Virus record (IMG/VR): IMGVR_UViG_3300013121_000027
Coordinates: 32,001 to 96,000 of that record
Reading direction: 5' to 3' (one strand)
Source: a virus
Lineage: Duplodnaviria; Caudoviricetes
DNA length: 64,000 nt
Shown here: one piece after another, positions 50,156 to 53,728 of the stretch
Position numbering within the stretch: position 1 is the stretch's first letter
Layout: each line of letters opens with the position of its first letter
Notes under the pieces: generated by a model
Told to the model about the DNA's origin: nothing
The model's input: the letters and a program-made list of their open reading frames with translations, nothing else
Database searches by the model: none
Program-made: the position numbers and the translations under genes

Positions 50156-50355
50156 TGAATAACCATCCCCTAATAGGCAGATGTGTCGAGCTTGTTGAAA
50201 TGATAGACGATCCAGATCCAATTCCCTATGGTGCAAGAGGGACTGTGATGCGTGTTGTTCGATTTTTAGAAACAGAAGTTATAACTGTTAATTGGGAAAT
50301 AAAAAGATGTTTAAATCTTGTCTCACCACCCGATAAATATGTTATAATAGATTAG
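50155..50355 (+). CDS. DUF4314-like protein; ATG overlaps the tRNA CCA
   Basis: G..VELVEM.DDP.PIP.GA.GTV...I.V.W....LNLV...D. Confidence 0.7.
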   Translation: MNNHPLIGRCVELVEMIDDPDPIPYGARGTVMRVVRFLETEVITVNWEIKRCLNLVSPPDKYVIID

Positions 50356-50378
50356 TAAGAAAAGTAAAAAGGTTTATT

Positions 50379-50443
50379 GTATGAACCGAATTTGAAGCGT
50401 TATCTTCTGGTGGTAAAATGCTTCATTGTTAACTTGTTCATAC
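50379..50443 (+). ncRNA. Y RNA-like unit 1
   Basis: GTATGAAC-CGAA...ACTT-GTTCATAC terminal helix; inner TGAAGCGTT/AATGCTTCA; TTATC. Confidence 0.75.
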
Positions 50444-50458
50444 TCAAGTTTAAAGCTT

Positions 50459-50526
50459 TGAACCGAATTGAAAACGATTATCTAATTGTAAATAGAACCC
50501 AAACTCGTTTTCTATCAACTTGTTCA
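50459..50526 (+). ncRNA. Y RNA-like unit 2
   Basis: TGAAC-CGAA...ACTT-GTTCA; inner GAAAACGA/TCGTTTTC; TTATC. Confidence 0.75.
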
Positions 50527-50538
50527 TTGCTCAGTTTA

Positions 50539-50663
50539 GTTAGAGCCGAACTTCAATTGATTATCATAGGTTCGAATCCCATAACCCCTAACGGGGGTTG
50601 CGCACCGGCGTTTGGTGCACCCAGTATAGTTCTGGGTTTCAATTGGAAAATACTTGTTCTAAC
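50539..50663 (+). ncRNA. Y RNA-like unit 3 with T-arm-containing cargo
   Basis: GTTAGAGC-CGAA...ACTT-GTTCTAAC; GGTTCGAATCC T arm followed by three hairpins. Confidence 0.8.
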
Positions 50664-50672
50664 ATTATTTAA

Positions 50673-50787
50673 ATCTTAAGCCGAATTTAAACGATTATCG
50701 CATATGGTTGACGAAGATGACACCAATAAGTCCATCTGAGCGGTTCGAATCCGCATTAAAATTCGTTTGAAATCCCTTGCTTAAGAT
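50673..50787 (+). ncRNA. Y RNA-like unit 4
   Basis: ATCTTAAGC-CGAA...CCTT-GCTTAAGAT; GCGG-TTCGAAT-CCGC T arm. Confidence 0.8.
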
Positions 50788-50795
50788 ATTTTTAT

Positions 50796-50928
50796 GTCAA
50801 AGCCGAATAAAATTCTTTATCGCCTTTCAAGCGGGTGGTCACAGGTTCAAATCCTGTCAAGGGCTAATTCCCTTTGTAGCTCAGTCCGGTAGAGCACCTA
50901 AACGAGGATTTTAAAAACTTGTTTTGAC
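50796..50928 (+). ncRNA. Y RNA-like unit 5, YrlA-type circularly permuted tRNA mimic
   Basis: GTCAAAGC-CGAA...ACTT-GTTTTGAC; T arm ACAGG-TTCAAAT-CCTGT, then closed acceptor AAGGG-CTAATT-CCCTT, then D arm TA-GCTC-AGTCCGGTA-GAGC. Confidence 0.85.
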
Positions 50929-50936
50929 GCCCTCTA

Positions 50937-51098
50937 ATTAAGAACCGAATTTAAACGATTATCATTTACCATACAACGGCAGAGATAGTATCGAAGCCAA
51001 CAAGAAGTCTCCTTGTAAAAAGAGAAAGATAAGCTACAAATAAGCGGAATCGCTGTAGTAATACAGTTATAATTCGTTTGAAGCAACTTGTTCTTAAT
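50937..51098 (+). ncRNA. Y RNA-like unit 6 (longest cargo)
   Basis: ATTAAGAAC-CGAA...ACTT-GTTCTTAAT; inner TTTAAACGA/TCGTTTGAA; TTATC. Confidence 0.75.
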
Positions 51099-51106
51099 AT
51101 CTCTTA

Positions 51107-51195
51107 ATCTTAAACCGAAATAATATGGTTCTCAGCAGCGTCTAACAGACAGTGGTTCGACTCCACAACCCGTATTAGCTCAACTTGTTTAAGAT
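51107..51195 (+). ncRNA. Y RNA-like unit 7
   Basis: ATCTTAAAC-CGAA...ACTT-GTTTAAGAT; GTGG-TTCGACT-CCAC T arm. Confidence 0.75.
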
Positions 51196-51243
51196 GCATT
51201 TTATATTTATCTTGTTCCCATCACATAGAAAGGAGAACCGAAA

Positions 51244-52827
51244 ATGACTACCGATCCTCTGATGCAGTTCAATATGCAGACCACTCCTCAGACTCAGCAA
51301 GCTGATAAGGCTCAGGTCCAGAATAATGCTGGTGGGTTTTCTTTTGAGGTTTCTACCGATCAGCGTCTGCTTCGTTTCTTAATTCTTGGTACTTGGGGCG
51401 GAACTTATTACGTCTCTGAGCAGAAGCTTACTAAGGATTCTTTCGAGAATGTTAAGAAGCTGGTTGACATTGACGGAAAGAAGGTTGTTGATATGGTACT
51501 TGATGTATCGCTCAACAACCGTGCTTATAAGCAGAACCCAACTCTGTTCACTCTCGCTGTAGCTTCTGCCGCTGATGACGTTGAGACTCGTCGCTATGCT
51601 CTTGCCGCTGTAGAAAAGGTATGCCGTACTGGCACCATGTTCTTCCAGTTCCTTGCTTATACTGAGCAGTTCCGTGGCTGGGGTTCCGCTCTTCAGAAGG
51701 CTGCTGCCAATTGGTACACTAATAAGACTCCCGATCAGCTTGCTAATCAGCTTGTCAAGTACCGTCAGCGTGATGGTTGGACTCACCGTGACGTTTTGCG
51801 TCTTGCAAAGCCTAAGATCGCCGCTGACAACCCTATCACGCCAGCTATTCGTTGGACCGTAGGTAAGGATACCGATCCCATTCTGCTTCCAGAGCTGATC
51901 TATGGCTTCCAGGAAGCTCAGAAGGTCACCAATGCTAAGGAGTGGGTGAAGCTTATCGAGCAGTATAAGCTTCCTTGGGAAGCTCTGCCAACCCAGGCTC
52001 TCAATGAGCCTTTGGTTTGGGAAGCTCTTGCTCCCCATATGGGATTGACTGCCTTGATTCGTAATCTTGGTAAGATGAGCGCCTGTGGTGCTCTTGTAAA
52101 CCATAGTGATCTTTCTAAGATTGTCAATGGTCGCCTCAGCGACAAGGAAGCATACCTCAAGGCTCGCGTACATCCAATGCAAGTTCTTCTTGCTCAGAGT
52201 GTTTACTCTGCTGGACGCGGCTTTAAGGGTAATAATACCTGGAATCCAGTTGCAACTGTTGTAGATAATCTTAATGAGGGATTCTATGCTGCATTTGGCA
52301 ACCTTCCAGAAACTGGTAAGCGTCGTATGCTTGCCATTGACGTGTCTGGGTCAATGGGCATGGGCACAATTGCTAATACCTTCTTGACGCCTCGTGATGC
52401 CTCTGCTGCACTTGCTATGGTAGCCCTTCACCAGGATCCGGAAAGCTATACCTTTGGCTTCTCTGGTGGCTTCATTCCTCTTGGCTTGTCCAAGGGTATG
52501 CGCTTGGATTCTGTTATTAAGAAGGTCAATGGTCTTCCTTTTGACAGAACCGATTGTGCTCTGCCTATGGTACACGCAAAGAAGGATCAATTGAAGGTGG
52601 ATTCATTTGAAATCTATACTGACAACGAGACCTGGGCTGGTAAGATTCATCCTCATCAGGCATTGAAGGACTACCGTGCTTGGTCTGGCATCAATTCCAA
52701 GTTTGTTGTAAATGGTATGGTCGCAAACAACTTTACTGTTGCCGATCCTAAGGATCCAGGATCGATCGACGTAGTTGGTTTCGATGCCTCTACCCCAAGC
52801 ATGGTATCAGATTTCATTTGCCAATAA
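51244..52827 (+). CDS. rsr: Ro60/TROVE RNA-binding protein (Rsr ortholog)
   Basis: NNAGGFSF, RFLILG..GGTYY, KYRQRDGWTHRDVLRL, ALIRNLGKM, DVSGSM vWA, TDNETW, GFDA..P. Confidence 0.95.
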   Translation: MTTDPLMQFNMQTTPQTQQADKAQVQNNAGGFSFEVSTDQRLLRFLILGTWGGTYYVSEQKLTKDSFENVKKLVDIDGKKVVDMVLDVSLNNRAYKQNPTLFTLAVASAADDVETRRYALAAVEKVCRTGTMFFQFLAYTEQFRGWGSALQKAAANWYTNKTPDQLANQLVKYRQRDGWTHRDVLRLAKPKIAADNPITPAIRWTVGKDTDPILLPELIYGFQEAQKVTNAKEWVKLIEQYKLPWEALPTQALNEPLVWEALAPHMGLTALIRNLGKMSACGALVNHSDLSKIVNGRLSDKEAYLKARVHPMQVLLAQSVYSAGRGFKGNNTWNPVATVVDNLNEGFYAAFGNLPETGKRRMLAIDVSGSMGMGTIANTFLTPRDASAALAMVALHQDPESYTFGFSGGFIPLGLSKGMRLDSVIKKVNGLPFDRTDCALPMVHAKKDQLKVDSFEIYTDNETWAGKIHPHQALKDYRAWSGINSKFVVNGMVANNFTVADPKDPGSIDVVGFDASTPSMVSDFICQ

Positions 52828-52831
52828 TAGA

Positions 52832-52964
52832 TTTCCTGTAGTAGACTTAACAGAACGATCAATAAGCTCAAAGTCCTTCGATTAGTCGAGCCTTATCTCT
52901 CTGAAAATGGCGGAGAGGAGCGAAGTTGTGTGGTGAAGAATCGGAATTCCACACCTACAGGAAA
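52832..52964 (+). ncRNA. Putative multibranch structured RNA downstream of rsr
   Basis: 10 bp closing stem TTTCCTGTAG/CTACAGGAAA with four internal hairpins. Confidence 0.5.
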
Positions 52965-52972
52965 CTTTTATT

Positions 52973-53728
52973 ATGACAAGAATCTTACTCGCAGGCGATA
53001 TACACGCCTCTCATTATCAAATAAAACTTTTAATTGAGAAAGCGCAACAATCTCATTGTACTCATATCATAGCCCTTGGGGATTTTGGATTTTTCCCTGG
53101 CAATAGATACTTTAATGATTTCTTATCTAAAGTGAATTATATGGTTTGTGATGCGGGAATTCATTTCTGGTGGCTTGATGGGAACCATGAAAATCACGAC
53201 GCCTTAGATGTGATGACACAGGGTAGAAACGATCAGATGTTCATCACCTCTTATAATGGAACCAGTTATAGTAATATTTATTATCTCCCAAGAGGATATA
53301 GATTTGAACTTGACGATGTAAAATTTATGTCATATGGTGGAGCTTATTCCGTTGATAAAGATGGACGTACGCAAGGCTTTGATTGGTTCCCGCAGGAAGA
53401 ACCTGATATCGCACATATCTCTAATCTTTCAGACGATCCAGTTGATATTTTACTCACTCATGACATACCTTATGACGATGCTTTTGTTTATCATAATGAA
53501 AGCATTAGTCAACTTGAACACGGAATAAAAAGTCAAAAAATTAGAAAAAGACTTTTATATTTGGCGCAAAAAATAACACCACGATATTGCTTCGGAGGTC
53601 ATCATCATCGTAGAGTTACCTATAATATACTCCATCGTAAAGGCGTTGCAGAGTGCCACATTCTTAGTTGTGGTGGGAATGGTAATGATTCTTGGTTTAT
53701 TCTTGACACGGAAAAAATAAATAAGTAA
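52973..53728 (+). CDS. Calcineurin-like metallophosphoesterase
   Basis: GDIH, GDFG, DGNHEN, LLTHD.P, GHHH. Confidence 0.9.
   Translation: MTRILLAGDIHASHYQIKLLIEKAQQSHCTHIIALGDFGFFPGNRYFNDFLSKVNYMVCDAGIHFWWLDGNHENHDALDVMTQGRNDQMFITSYNGTSYSNIYYLPRGYRFELDDVKFMSYGGAYSVDKDGRTQGFDWFPQEEPDIAHISNLSDDPVDILLTHDIPYDDAFVYHNESISQLEHGIKSQKIRKRLLYLAQKITPRYCFGGHHHRRVTYNILHRKGVAECHILSCGGNGNDSWFILDTEKINK

What the first reader, a model, noticed from the sequence alone, without database searches (positions are those of the whole stretch)
50379..52827. Tandem array of seven modular Y RNAs (constant Ro-binding handle, variable cargo) upstream of a phage Ro60 gene
Seen: seven back-to-back units of 65-162 nt fill the whole ~850 nt before rsr. 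Each has a terminal helix 5'-RARC-C-GAA...(A/C)CTT-GYTY-3', an 8-9 bp inner helix and TTATC (TTCTC in unit 7). The helix sequences differ between units but keep pairing, i.e. they covary. The cargo varies: minimal loops (1, 2), T-arm structures (3, 4, 7), a full permuted tRNA mimic (5) and a long multi-hairpin (6). A TATAAT at 50343 could drive one transcript. Known: the Ro60 site of Y RNAs is a bulged-C helix (GGUCCGA/UUGAC), and bacterial YrlA RNAs beside rsr carry a permuted T-arm/acceptor/D-arm domain. To my knowledge only one to a few Y RNAs are usually described per locus. Inference: a processed array of one scaffold with interchangeable effector or decoy domains, which could give Ro RNPs different partners or act as tRNA decoys against host anticodon nucleases.
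Basis: partly seen in the sequence, partly recalled or inferred. Interest (0 to 1): 0.93.

Follow-up and report, generated by a model that had tools for sequence, protein, structure and literature searches.

The report
Seven-gene Y RNA array before phage Ro60
A 231-kb uncultured phage carries seven back-to-back small RNA genes that share the docking stem for the ring-shaped RNA-binding protein Ro60 but have different "heads". It is a large example of a known Ro60/Y RNA arrangement that is common yet almost never annotated.

Summary
Seven units (65-162 nt, spacers 7-15 nt) fill 50379-51195, just upstream of a full-length Ro60/Rsr gene (51244-52827). A structural descriptor finds exactly these seven in the whole 231-kb phage genome. 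Each unit has a 5-9 bp closing helix, a bulged C, G.U and A-U pairs (CCGAA/CUUG), a 7-10 bp inner helix and UUAUC (UUCUC in unit 7). The heads differ: two minimal hairpins, three with a T-arm, one YrlA-type permuted tRNA mimic (Rfam YrlA, 46 bits, below the cut-off) and one 110-nt multi-hairpin.

The same scaffold recurs on the rsr strand in about 230 phage, metagenome and bacterial rsr loci (340 signatures against 5 antisense). These are therefore real Y RNA genes.

The array is large but not unique. I found 6 units in another phage and 8 in two bacterial genome bins, and earlier notes of this scan report 6-10-unit arrays on other DNA.

Multiple, modular, polycistronic Y RNAs beside rsr are already described for Deinococcus, Salmonella, Mycobacterium and Thermus phage phiLo. 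The tRNA-decoy idea is untested.

Side finding: a permuted copy of the docking helix overlaps the rsr ribosome-binding site, which points to autoregulation.

Verdict: new member of a known kind, of moderate interest.

The parts
50340..50348 (+). Promoter-like extended -10 element (TGTTATAAT), about 30 nt upstream of unit 1
   Evidence: one of two copies in the window. Consensus match only; the host's promoter type is unknown. No terminator-like site lies between here and rsr.
50379..50443 (+). Y RNA unit 1, minimal hairpin type (8-bp closing helix, CCGAA/CUUG, 7-bp inner helix, UUAUC, 14-nt loop)
   Evidence: Covariance model R1 scores 61.6 bits, but this unit was in the model's seed alignment.
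50456..50529 (+). Y RNA unit 2, minimal hairpin type (core 50459-50526)
   Evidence: R1 scores 44 bits, but this unit was also a seed member. It has the weakest fold of the seven (z -1.46).
50539..50663 (+). Y RNA unit 3. Head = imperfect T-arm (GGUUCGAAUCC), then an 8-bp stem-loop and two further hairpins
   Evidence: The same head order (T-arm first) is seen in L073 unit 2.
50673..50787 (+). Y RNA unit 4. Head = hairpin plus T-arm (GCGGUUCGAAUCCGC). Its inner helix is identical to that of unit 6
50795..50929 (+). Y RNA unit 5, YrlA-type permuted tRNA mimic. Order: anticodon-like hairpin CGC-CUUUCAA-GCG, T-arm, capped acceptor-like stem, D-arm
   Evidence: Rfam RF02553 46.4 bits, E 6.9e-9, model positions 1-114, below the gathering score of 69. 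Also.
50937..51098 (+). Y RNA unit 6. The 110-nt multi-hairpin head has no tRNA-like element and no match elsewhere
   Evidence: No similar head in about 240 loci or in the phage's own genome. Only chance-level Rfam hits.
51107..51195 (+). Y RNA unit 7. Head = small hairpin plus T-arm (GUGGUUCGACUCCAC). UUCUC replaces UUAUC
   Evidence: R1 scores 34.8 bits, E 1e-6, and this unit was not in the seed.
51209..51243 (+). Permuted copy of the docking helix. UUAUC-UUG-UUCC, a loop, then GGAGAAC-C-GAA, which covers the Shine-Dalgarno sequence and ends 1 nt before the rsr AUG
   Evidence: Sequence. The hairpin 51214-51238 forms in the fold of the whole array but is weak alone (-5 kcal/mol). Such sites are enriched at rsr starts: 25 of 145 against 39 of 1774 control ORFs, p 4e-13.
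51244..52827 (+). rsr, a Ro60 ortholog of 527 aa
   Evidence: Pfam TROVE and vWA_Ro60. PDB 2NVO E 5e-117; human and Xenopus Ro60 E 1e-101.

Best explanation
The region is a polycistronic array of seven Y RNA genes that belongs to the phage's Ro60 (rsr) operon.

Shown by sequence and comparison:
- Every unit ends in the Ro60-docking stem: a closing helix, a bulged C, a G.U and an A-U pair, an inner ('upper') helix and UUAUC.
- Each unit carries a different head, the 'effector module' of the Y RNA literature.

Inferred:
- One transcript starts near 50355 and runs through the array into rsr.
- Host RNases cut in the short A/U-rich spacers, and RNase P may cut at the tRNA-like unit.
- Rsr binds each stem and protects it from exonucleases, giving seven different Ro60 RNPs.
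- The heads either gate the Ro60 cavity (minimal units) or tether Ro60 to other RNA-handling proteins such as PNPase or tRNA-binding enzymes (T-arm and tRNA-like units). The phage would use these RNPs for RNA quality control or turnover during infection.
- Free Rsr probably also binds the permuted docking helix over its own ribosome-binding site, tying Rsr synthesis to the supply of Y RNAs.
For: - Identity and position: the seven units are found only here in the 231-kb genome. They lie on the rsr strand and end 48 nt before the start codon.
- Family-level support that does not depend on folding: the sequence-only signature YCGRA-N7-13-GTTAYC occurs 340 times on the rsr strand and 5 times antisense within 1.5 kb of rsr, in 228 non-redundant loci.
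- A covariance model built from 18 minimal units gives 87 hits in 80 phage loci, all on the rsr strand and nearly all just upstream of rsr.
- Helices covary: 84% of cells are paired, 15 of 19 pairs change on both sides, and 0 of 500 shuffles reach this.
- Of 356 loci picked by 5' sequence alone, 84 have a full 3' partner, against 7.4 expected.
- Unit 5 aligns to Rfam YrlA. Related minimal units score 37.6 bits against the nematode stem-bulge (Y-type) RNA model RF01656, whose cut-off is 38. The match includes the lower stem, upper stem, UUAUC and AACUUG.
- Literature: Y RNAs are modular. Deinococcus makes Yrn2, tRNA-Asp and Yrn1 as one precursor, and Rsr is needed for their accumulation (PMC4201824). 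Thermus phage phiLo Ro60 binds two upstream Yrl RNAs that carry the CGAA motif (PMC12135203).
- RBS site.
Against: - There are no expression, processing or binding data for this phage, and its host is unknown.
- Unit 5 is below Rfam's curated YrlA score. The window's own minimal units hit no Rfam family.
- In the predicted fold of the whole 900-nt precursor, only 4 of 7 closing helices survive.
- The first base of the published GNCGAA motif is A in four of the seven units.
- The covariation alignment was selected partly by pairing, so it is partly circular. The non-circular checks are.
- The closest Rsr relatives (73% identity) could not be fetched, so unit-by-unit conservation is untested.
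Confidence: 0.8

Rival explanations
1. tRNA decoys or anti-defence RNAs. The tRNA-like heads soak up host anticodon nucleases or other tRNA-targeting defence enzymes, and Ro60 serves mainly to stabilise them.
For: - Unit 5 has a canonical 7-nt anticodon-type loop (CUUUCAA) on a stem. The two bases after the D-arm complete that stem to 5 bp.
- At least 13 of 25 YrlA-like units in other loci show the same design with different 'anticodons', such as UGU, UGG, UCU, UUU, GUG and GUU.
- The phage invests heavily in tRNA matters, with 17 tRNA genes in the window.
Against: - Only one of the seven units has an anticodon-like loop.
- Two units have no tRNA element, and one has an unrelated 110-nt head.
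- The same arrays occur in bacterial chromosomes (L192, L235), where an anti-defence role is not expected.
- No nuclease or target is identified.
Confidence: 0.08
2. Cis-acting leader. The array is not processed. It stays attached to the rsr mRNA as a multi-site Ro60 landing pad that controls stability or translation of rsr.
For: - There is no terminator or strong internal promoter between the units and rsr.
- An eighth, permuted docking helix overlaps the RBS.
Against: - In every studied system, Y RNAs accumulate as discrete small RNAs, including those made from a polycistronic precursor (PMC4201824).
- In other loci the same units lie downstream of rsr (L043, L055) or are interleaved with tRNA genes (L039, L076, L242), which does not fit a leader role.
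Confidence: 0.07
3. Partly dead duplicates. Only one or two units are functional Y RNAs, and the rest are decaying copies from tandem duplication.
For: - u4 and u6 share an identical inner helix, and the closing helices of u4 and u7 are nearly identical. This shows duplication.
- u2 folds weakly (z -1.46).
Against: - All seven keep an intact bulged-C helix, inner helix and UUAUC-type motif, with compensatory changes.
- Large mixed arrays recur in distant phages and bacteria.
Confidence: 0.04
4. The region is protein-coding (ORF 50377-50679, 100 aa, TTG start).
For: An open frame exists.
Against: - The ORF has no PHROG family match.
- It spans four structured units whose conserved features are RNA helices with compensatory changes.
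- The other units are not open.
Confidence: 0.01

Closest known systems
Deinococcus radiodurans rsr locus (Yrn1, Yrn2 and small RNAs a, b, d; Chen et al. 2000, 2014, PMC4201824)
   Same: - Several small RNAs are encoded directly upstream of rsr on the same strand.
- Both strands of the Ro60-binding helix are kept.
- The RNAs come from a polycistronic precursor.
[quoted passage not shown]
- The Rsr protein is the best structural-database match (2NVO, E 5e-117).
   Different: - Here there are seven units, all with a clean docking stem, in a phage.
- One unit is a full YrlA-type tRNA mimic, which Deinococcus lacks.
- No tRNA gene lies inside the array.
YrlA / YrlB of Salmonella Typhimurium and Mycobacterium smegmatis, and YrlA-like RNAs of 22 phages (Rfam RF02553; PMC4201824; bioRxiv 10.1101/312249)
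   Same: - Unit 5 has the permuted order T-arm, capped acceptor stem, D-arm inside a Ro-binding stem.
- Units 1 and 2 resemble the 'long hairpin, small loop' YrlB class.
- The CGAA motif is present.
   Different: - Unit 5 scores 46 bits against a cut-off of 69.
- In Salmonella and M. smegmatis only the 5' strand of the binding helix is recognisable; here both strands and UUAUC are kept.
- The known loci have two RNAs per locus; this one has seven.
Thermus phage phiLo Ro60 with Yrl1 and Yrl2 (NAR 2025, PMC12135203)
   Same: A phage Ro60 gene has Y RNA-like genes with CGAA motifs just upstream. In phiLo, binding was shown by gel shift and cryo-EM.
   Different: - There are two RNAs in phiLo against seven here.
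- phiLo Ro60 is only distantly related to this protein (E 2e-6).
Animal Y RNAs and nematode stem-bulge RNAs (Rfam RF00019, RF01656; PMC4726728)
   Same: - Lower stem with a bulged C (GGUCCGA / UUGACC type).
- Conserved upper stem, followed by UUAUC.
- Relatives of these units nearly reach the sbRNA gathering score.
   Different: - The window's own A/U-rich units hit neither family.
- They are made from a bacterial-type polycistron, not by RNA polymerase III.
- Animal RNAs have no tRNA-like heads.

Membership tests
Y RNA (Ro60-associated small RNA) | Encoded close to the Ro60/rsr gene (within 4 kb in bacteria and phages) and on the same strand | tested here: met
   The array ends 48 nt before the rsr AUG, on the same strand.
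Y RNA (Ro60-associated small RNA) | The 5' and 3' ends pair into a long stem that holds the conserved Ro60-binding helix (bulged C, CGAA motif; GNCGAAN0-1G in bacteria) | tested here: met
   All seven have a 5-9 bp closing helix, a bulged C, G.U and A-U pairs (CCGAA/CUUG) and a 7-10 bp inner helix. The first G of GNCGAA is present in 3 of 7 units and is A in the other four.
Y RNA (Ro60-associated small RNA) | A variable internal loop or effector module distal to the stem | tested here: met
   Heads of 14 to 110 nt, in four types.
Y RNA (Ro60-associated small RNA) | Size 80-130 nt (characterised Y RNAs, PMC4201824) | tested here: inconclusive
   Four units fall in this range. u1 (65 nt) and u2 (68-74 nt) are shorter and u6 (162 nt) is longer. 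True ends are unknown.
Y RNA (Ro60-associated small RNA) | Bound by Ro60/Rsr, and dependent on it for accumulation | not testable with these tools
   Needs RIP, gel shift or Northern blots.
YrlA (Rfam RF02553) | Score at or above the curated gathering threshold (69 bits) | tested here: not met
   Unit 5 scores 46.4 bits, E 6.9e-9, with a full-length alignment. The other six units have no hit.
YrlA (Rfam RF02553) | Permuted tRNA-like domain: T-arm, capped acceptor-like stem and D-arm inside the Ro-binding stem | tested here: met
   Met for unit 5 only: ACAGGUUCAAAUCCUGU, AAGGG..CCCUU, GUAGCUCAGUCCGGUAGAGC.
Nematode sbRNA / animal Y RNA (RF01656, RF00019) | Match to the family covariance model | tested here: not met
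   No hit for the window's units even at E <= 10. Related phage units in L039 reach 37.6 bits against a cut-off of 38.

The most novel reading that the evidence does not exclude
The both-strand docking helix, upper stem and UUAUC of these phage and bacterial units make them direct homologues of animal Y RNAs and nematode stem-bulge RNAs. This runs against the published view that bacterial Y RNAs are unrelated to the vertebrate clades. Large arrays (7-8 or more units) would then be a general way to supply one Ro60 ring with a panel of adaptors. Ro60 would set its own level through a permuted docking helix on its ribosome-binding site.
Probability: 0.3. Interest if true: 0.7.

Novelty: new member of a known kind. 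Interest (0 to 1): 0.5.

Why it matters
What the variable heads of bacterial Y RNAs bind is still unknown, including the partner of the tRNA-like YrlA domain. A single locus with seven different heads on one docking stem is a natural panel for pull-down experiments.

The comparison shows that such arrays are common but unannotated in phages and soil or sludge bacteria. In one GenBank phage a unit overlaps a gene annotated as a tRNA.

Two observations could be tested directly in cultured actinophages: the near-match to animal and nematode Y-type RNAs, and the docking helix over the rsr ribosome-binding site.

Tried and rejected
The closest Rsr relatives (P0002-P0004, 73% identity, Logan/ENA contigs) could therefore not be fetched, and unit-by-unit conservation could not be tested.
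- A single-protein search of viral contigs found nothing.
- The exact 19-mer shared by u4 and u6 has no match in viral contigs.
- blastn against GenBank phages found only distant rsr genes.
- Covariance model R1 detects only short units (u1, u2, u7 in the window). Long heads exceed what it tolerates, so long units were counted with my own descriptors.
- My relaxed descriptor is noisy (81 antisense hits). It was used only for contiguous chains.
- A first non-circular structure test was too permissive to be informative. It was replaced by a stricter one.
- The 3' intergenic region 52826-52972 was folded as a possible extra Y RNA. It has a long terminal helix but no significant structure and no docking motif.
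- Heads of the seven units have no similar sequence in about 240 loci, apart from T-arm segments.
- The reviews by Sim and Wolin (2018), Boccitto and Wolin (2019) and Sim et al. (2020) are not held, and the supplementary tables of Chen 2014 are not held. My statement that large arrays are undescribed therefore rests on an incomplete reading.
Full report
**Setting**

The window is bases 32001-96000 of a 231,459-bp IMG/VR phage record with direct terminal repeats. The genome is 38% G+C and is rich in tRNA genes, with 17 in the window. The ORF at 51244-52827 is a complete Ro60 ortholog. It carries Pfam TROVE and the Ro60 vWA domain. Its best solved relatives are Deinococcus Rsr 2NVO (E 5e-117) and human and Xenopus Ro60 (E about 1e-101).

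**The observation**

Reading 50200-53000 shows seven units.
- The motif RARCCGAA occurs seven times between 50383 and 51119. MCTTGYTY occurs seven times between 50432 and 51190, alternating with it.
- I wrote a descriptor that requires a 5-bp closing helix whose last pair is C-G, a bulged C, GA(A), a 3' strand (C)UUG, and an inner helix of at least 6 bp.
- With CCGAA/CTTG it returns exactly the seven units and nothing else on either strand of the window or of the whole genome.
- Folded alone, each unit forms the closing and inner helices.
- Maximal extents are 50379-50443, 50459-50526, 50539-50663, 50673-50787, 50795-50929, 50937-51098 and 51107-51195. Closing helices are 5-9 bp, inner helices 7-10 bp, and spacers are 7-15 nt and A/U-rich.
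- Helix sequences differ between units and remain complementary. u4 and u6 share an identical inner helix but have different closing helices and unrelated heads. This points to duplication with exchange of heads.
- UUAUC follows the inner helix in six units, and UUCUC in u7.

**What the heads are**

- u1 and u2 are hairpins with 14- and 22-nt loops.
- u4 and u7 have a small hairpin followed by a T-arm. u3 starts with an imperfect T-arm followed by three hairpins.
- u5 aligns over all 114 positions of Rfam YrlA (46.4 bits, E 6.9e-9, below the gathering score of 69). It has a T-arm, a capped acceptor-like stem and a D-arm in the permuted order.
- u6 has a 110-nt multi-hairpin head. It has no tRNA element and no relative in any locus I fetched.
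- ARAGORN calls no tRNA in the array.
- The 100-codon ORF that overlaps u1-u4 has no PHROG family match.

**Comparative evidence**

No close relative of this phage could be fetched. I therefore collected 80 viral, 80 metagenomic and 80 bacterial-genome rsr loci.

- The strict descriptor plus a UUAYC-like motif gives 86 hits on the rsr strand, 6 antisense and 4 in shuffled sequence.
- Eighteen minimal units from ten phages align well. The CCGA and UUG positions and the helices were required by the search descriptor. The G-UUAYC after the inner helix, an A at alignment column 18 and the A/C before CUUG were not required, and they are invariant or nearly so.
- The two helices covary: 84% of cells are paired, 15 of 19 pairs change on both sides, and no shuffle of 500 reaches this. 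Because those sequences were chosen by pairing, I added tests that do not use pairing.
- The sequence-only signature YCGRA-N7-13-GTTAYC occurs 357 times on the rsr strand and 13 times antisense in 227 non-redundant loci. Within 1.5 kb of rsr the count is 340 against 5 (binomial p about 1e-93).
- Of the loci picked by that signature alone, 84 have a complete 3' partner against 7.4 expected with shuffled 5' strands.
- A covariance model of the minimal units gives 87 hits in the 80 viral loci. All are on the rsr strand and nearly all lie just upstream of rsr.

The scaffold is therefore a real, widespread RNA family tied to rsr.

**Array size in context**

Counting contiguous chains, most loci have 1-3 units. 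Phage locus L073 has six back-to-back units with the same mix of heads: multi-hairpin, T-arm-first, hairpin, two YrlA-like and one minimal. Two bacterial genome bins, an alphaproteobacterium (L192) and a Rhodomicrobiaceae member (L235), each have eight signatures. All eight resolve into units in L192, seven of them back to back; seven of the eight resolve in L235. Earlier notes of this scan report 6-, 7-, 9- and 10-unit arrays beside phage Ro60 genes on other DNA. I did not check those notes, but they agree with what I measured. The window's array is at the high end and is not unique.

**Relation to what is published**

- Chen et al. 2014 (PMC4201824) found YrlA-like RNAs near rsr, on the same strand, in 254 bacteria and 22 phages, and defined the GNCGAAN0-1G motif.
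- They showed that Deinococcus makes Yrn2, tRNA-Asp and Yrn1 as one precursor, with further small RNAs (a, b, d; a and b with T-arms) upstream of rsr.
- They proposed that the extra Y RNAs let Ro60 join a wider range of partners.
- Wang et al. (bioRxiv 10.1101/312249) describe Y RNAs as a Ro60-binding module plus an effector-binding module.
- Thermus phage phiLo Ro60 binds two upstream Yrl RNAs that were identified by their CGAA motifs (PMC12135203).

The kind of object, its modularity, its polycistronic synthesis and its presence in phages are thus all known. What is new is the number and diversity of units in one phage locus. Searches of the held literature for tandem arrays or for autoregulation of rsr found nothing relevant. 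Three key reviews are not held.

**Resemblance to animal Y RNAs**

Related minimal units in phage locus L039 score 37.6, 30.1 and 26.2 bits against Rfam RF01656, a nematode stem-bulge RNA family with a cut-off of 38. The matches cover the lower stem, upper stem, GGGUUAUC and CACCAACUUG. UUAUC is a known conserved motif of nematode sbRNAs and vertebrate Y RNAs (PMC4726728). That review states that bacterial Y RNAs are not homologous to the vertebrate clades. The window's own A/U-rich units hit neither family, so this is a lead about the wider family rather than a property shown for this locus.

**Expression architecture (inferred)**

- TGTTATAAT lies at 50340-50348.
- No terminator-like site lies inside the array or before rsr.
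- Spacers are short and A/U-rich.
- In other loci the units are interleaved with tRNA genes (L039, L076 and Gordonia phage Mareelih).
- All of this fits co-transcription and processing as in tRNA clusters.
- In a predicted fold of the whole 900-nt precursor, only four of the seven closing helices survive. That is weak evidence either way for an RNA of this length.

**A docking helix on the ribosome-binding site**

After u7 the two half-motifs recur in reverse order. UUAUC-UUG-UUCC lies at 51206-51218, and GGAGAAC-C-GAA lies at 51232-51242, covering the Shine-Dalgarno sequence and ending one base before the AUG.

I tested it across loci. A permuted docking helix ending within 25 nt of the start codon is present at 25 of 145 rsr genes and at 39 of 1774 other ORFs in the same loci (odds ratio 9, p 4e-13).

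Two designs recur:
- a compact hairpin CCUUG-CUCGUG-loop-CACGAG-C-CGAA immediately 5' of the Shine-Dalgarno sequence;
- CGAA placed between the Shine-Dalgarno sequence and the AUG, as in the window.

Binding of free Rsr there would block initiation. This is inference; the hairpin alone is weak.

**The decoy idea**

Unit 5 and at least 13 of 25 YrlA-like units elsewhere carry a 7-nt anticodon-type loop. The stem under it is completed to 5 bp by the two bases that follow the D-arm, and the 'anticodons' differ between units. In Microbacterium phage Magritte one such unit overlaps a gene annotated tRNA-Arg(tct). This makes them fuller tRNA mimics than the usual description. It does not show a decoy function. 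Six of the seven heads here lack such a loop, and the same arrays sit in bacterial chromosomes.

**Verdict**

The reading as a Y RNA array beside phage Ro60 is well supported. The functional speculation is untested. This is a new, large member of a known kind and of moderate interest. The side observations on the wider family (the link to animal Y RNAs and the docking helix on the ribosome-binding site) deserve their own follow-up.

Noticed in passing
window 51209-51243; also L013, L010, L047, L070, L009, L074 just upstream of rsr: A permuted Ro60-docking helix sits at or next to the rsr Shine-Dalgarno sequence. It is present at 25 of 145 rsr genes against 39 of 1774 control ORFs (p 4e-13). 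Two recurring designs exist. It may be translational autoregulation by Rsr.
   Followed up: partly
window 50818-50838 (unit 5); L073 3559-3686, L043 6405-6533, L131 2595-2717, L052 3584-3705 and others: YrlA-like units carry a 7-nt anticodon-type loop. Its 5-bp stem is split by the insertion point of the Ro-binding stalk (3 bp plus the 2 bases after the D-arm). The 'anticodons' differ between units (UUC, UUU, GCU, UGU, UCU, GUG, GUU and others).
   Followed up: partly
L039 3337-3679: Three minimal phage Y units score 26-37.6 bits against the nematode stem-bulge RNA family RF01656 (cut-off 38). The shared features include UUAUC and AACUUG, which suggests homology with animal Y-type RNAs.
   Followed up: partly
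L039 3484-3612: A tRNA gene with a 59-nt insertion in the anticodon region (possibly an intron) lies between two Y RNA units of the array.
   Followed up: no
L192 1552-2956 and L235 1570-2916 (bacterial genome bins, Alphaproteobacteria / Rhodomicrobiaceae): Each locus has eight Y RNA 5' signatures upstream of a chromosomal rsr. All eight resolve into units in L192 and seven of eight in L235. Large arrays are therefore not confined to phages.
   Followed up: partly
L246 1942-2065 (Microbacterium phage Magritte, OR553905.1): A YrlA-like Y RNA unit overlaps a feature annotated as tRNA-Arg(tct). None of the five GenBank phage records I inspected annotates any Y RNA.
   Followed up: partly
L242 2134-2204, 4899-4958, 5462-5526 (Gordonia phage Mareelih, OP820470.1): This cultured phage has three minimal Y RNA-like units. 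One is upstream of rsr and two lie inside the downstream tRNA/tmRNA cluster. It could serve as an experimental model.
   Followed up: no
window 52826-52972: The rsr-to-phosphoesterase spacer has a 13-bp long-range helix (UUUCCUGUAG...CUACAGGAAA) followed by UUUUAUU. Overall structure is not significant (z -1.6), and there is no docking motif.
   Followed up: partly
L065 2298-2413: An Rfam wcaG RNA match above its cut-off (56 bits against 42) lies between two Y RNA units upstream of a phage rsr.
   Followed up: no
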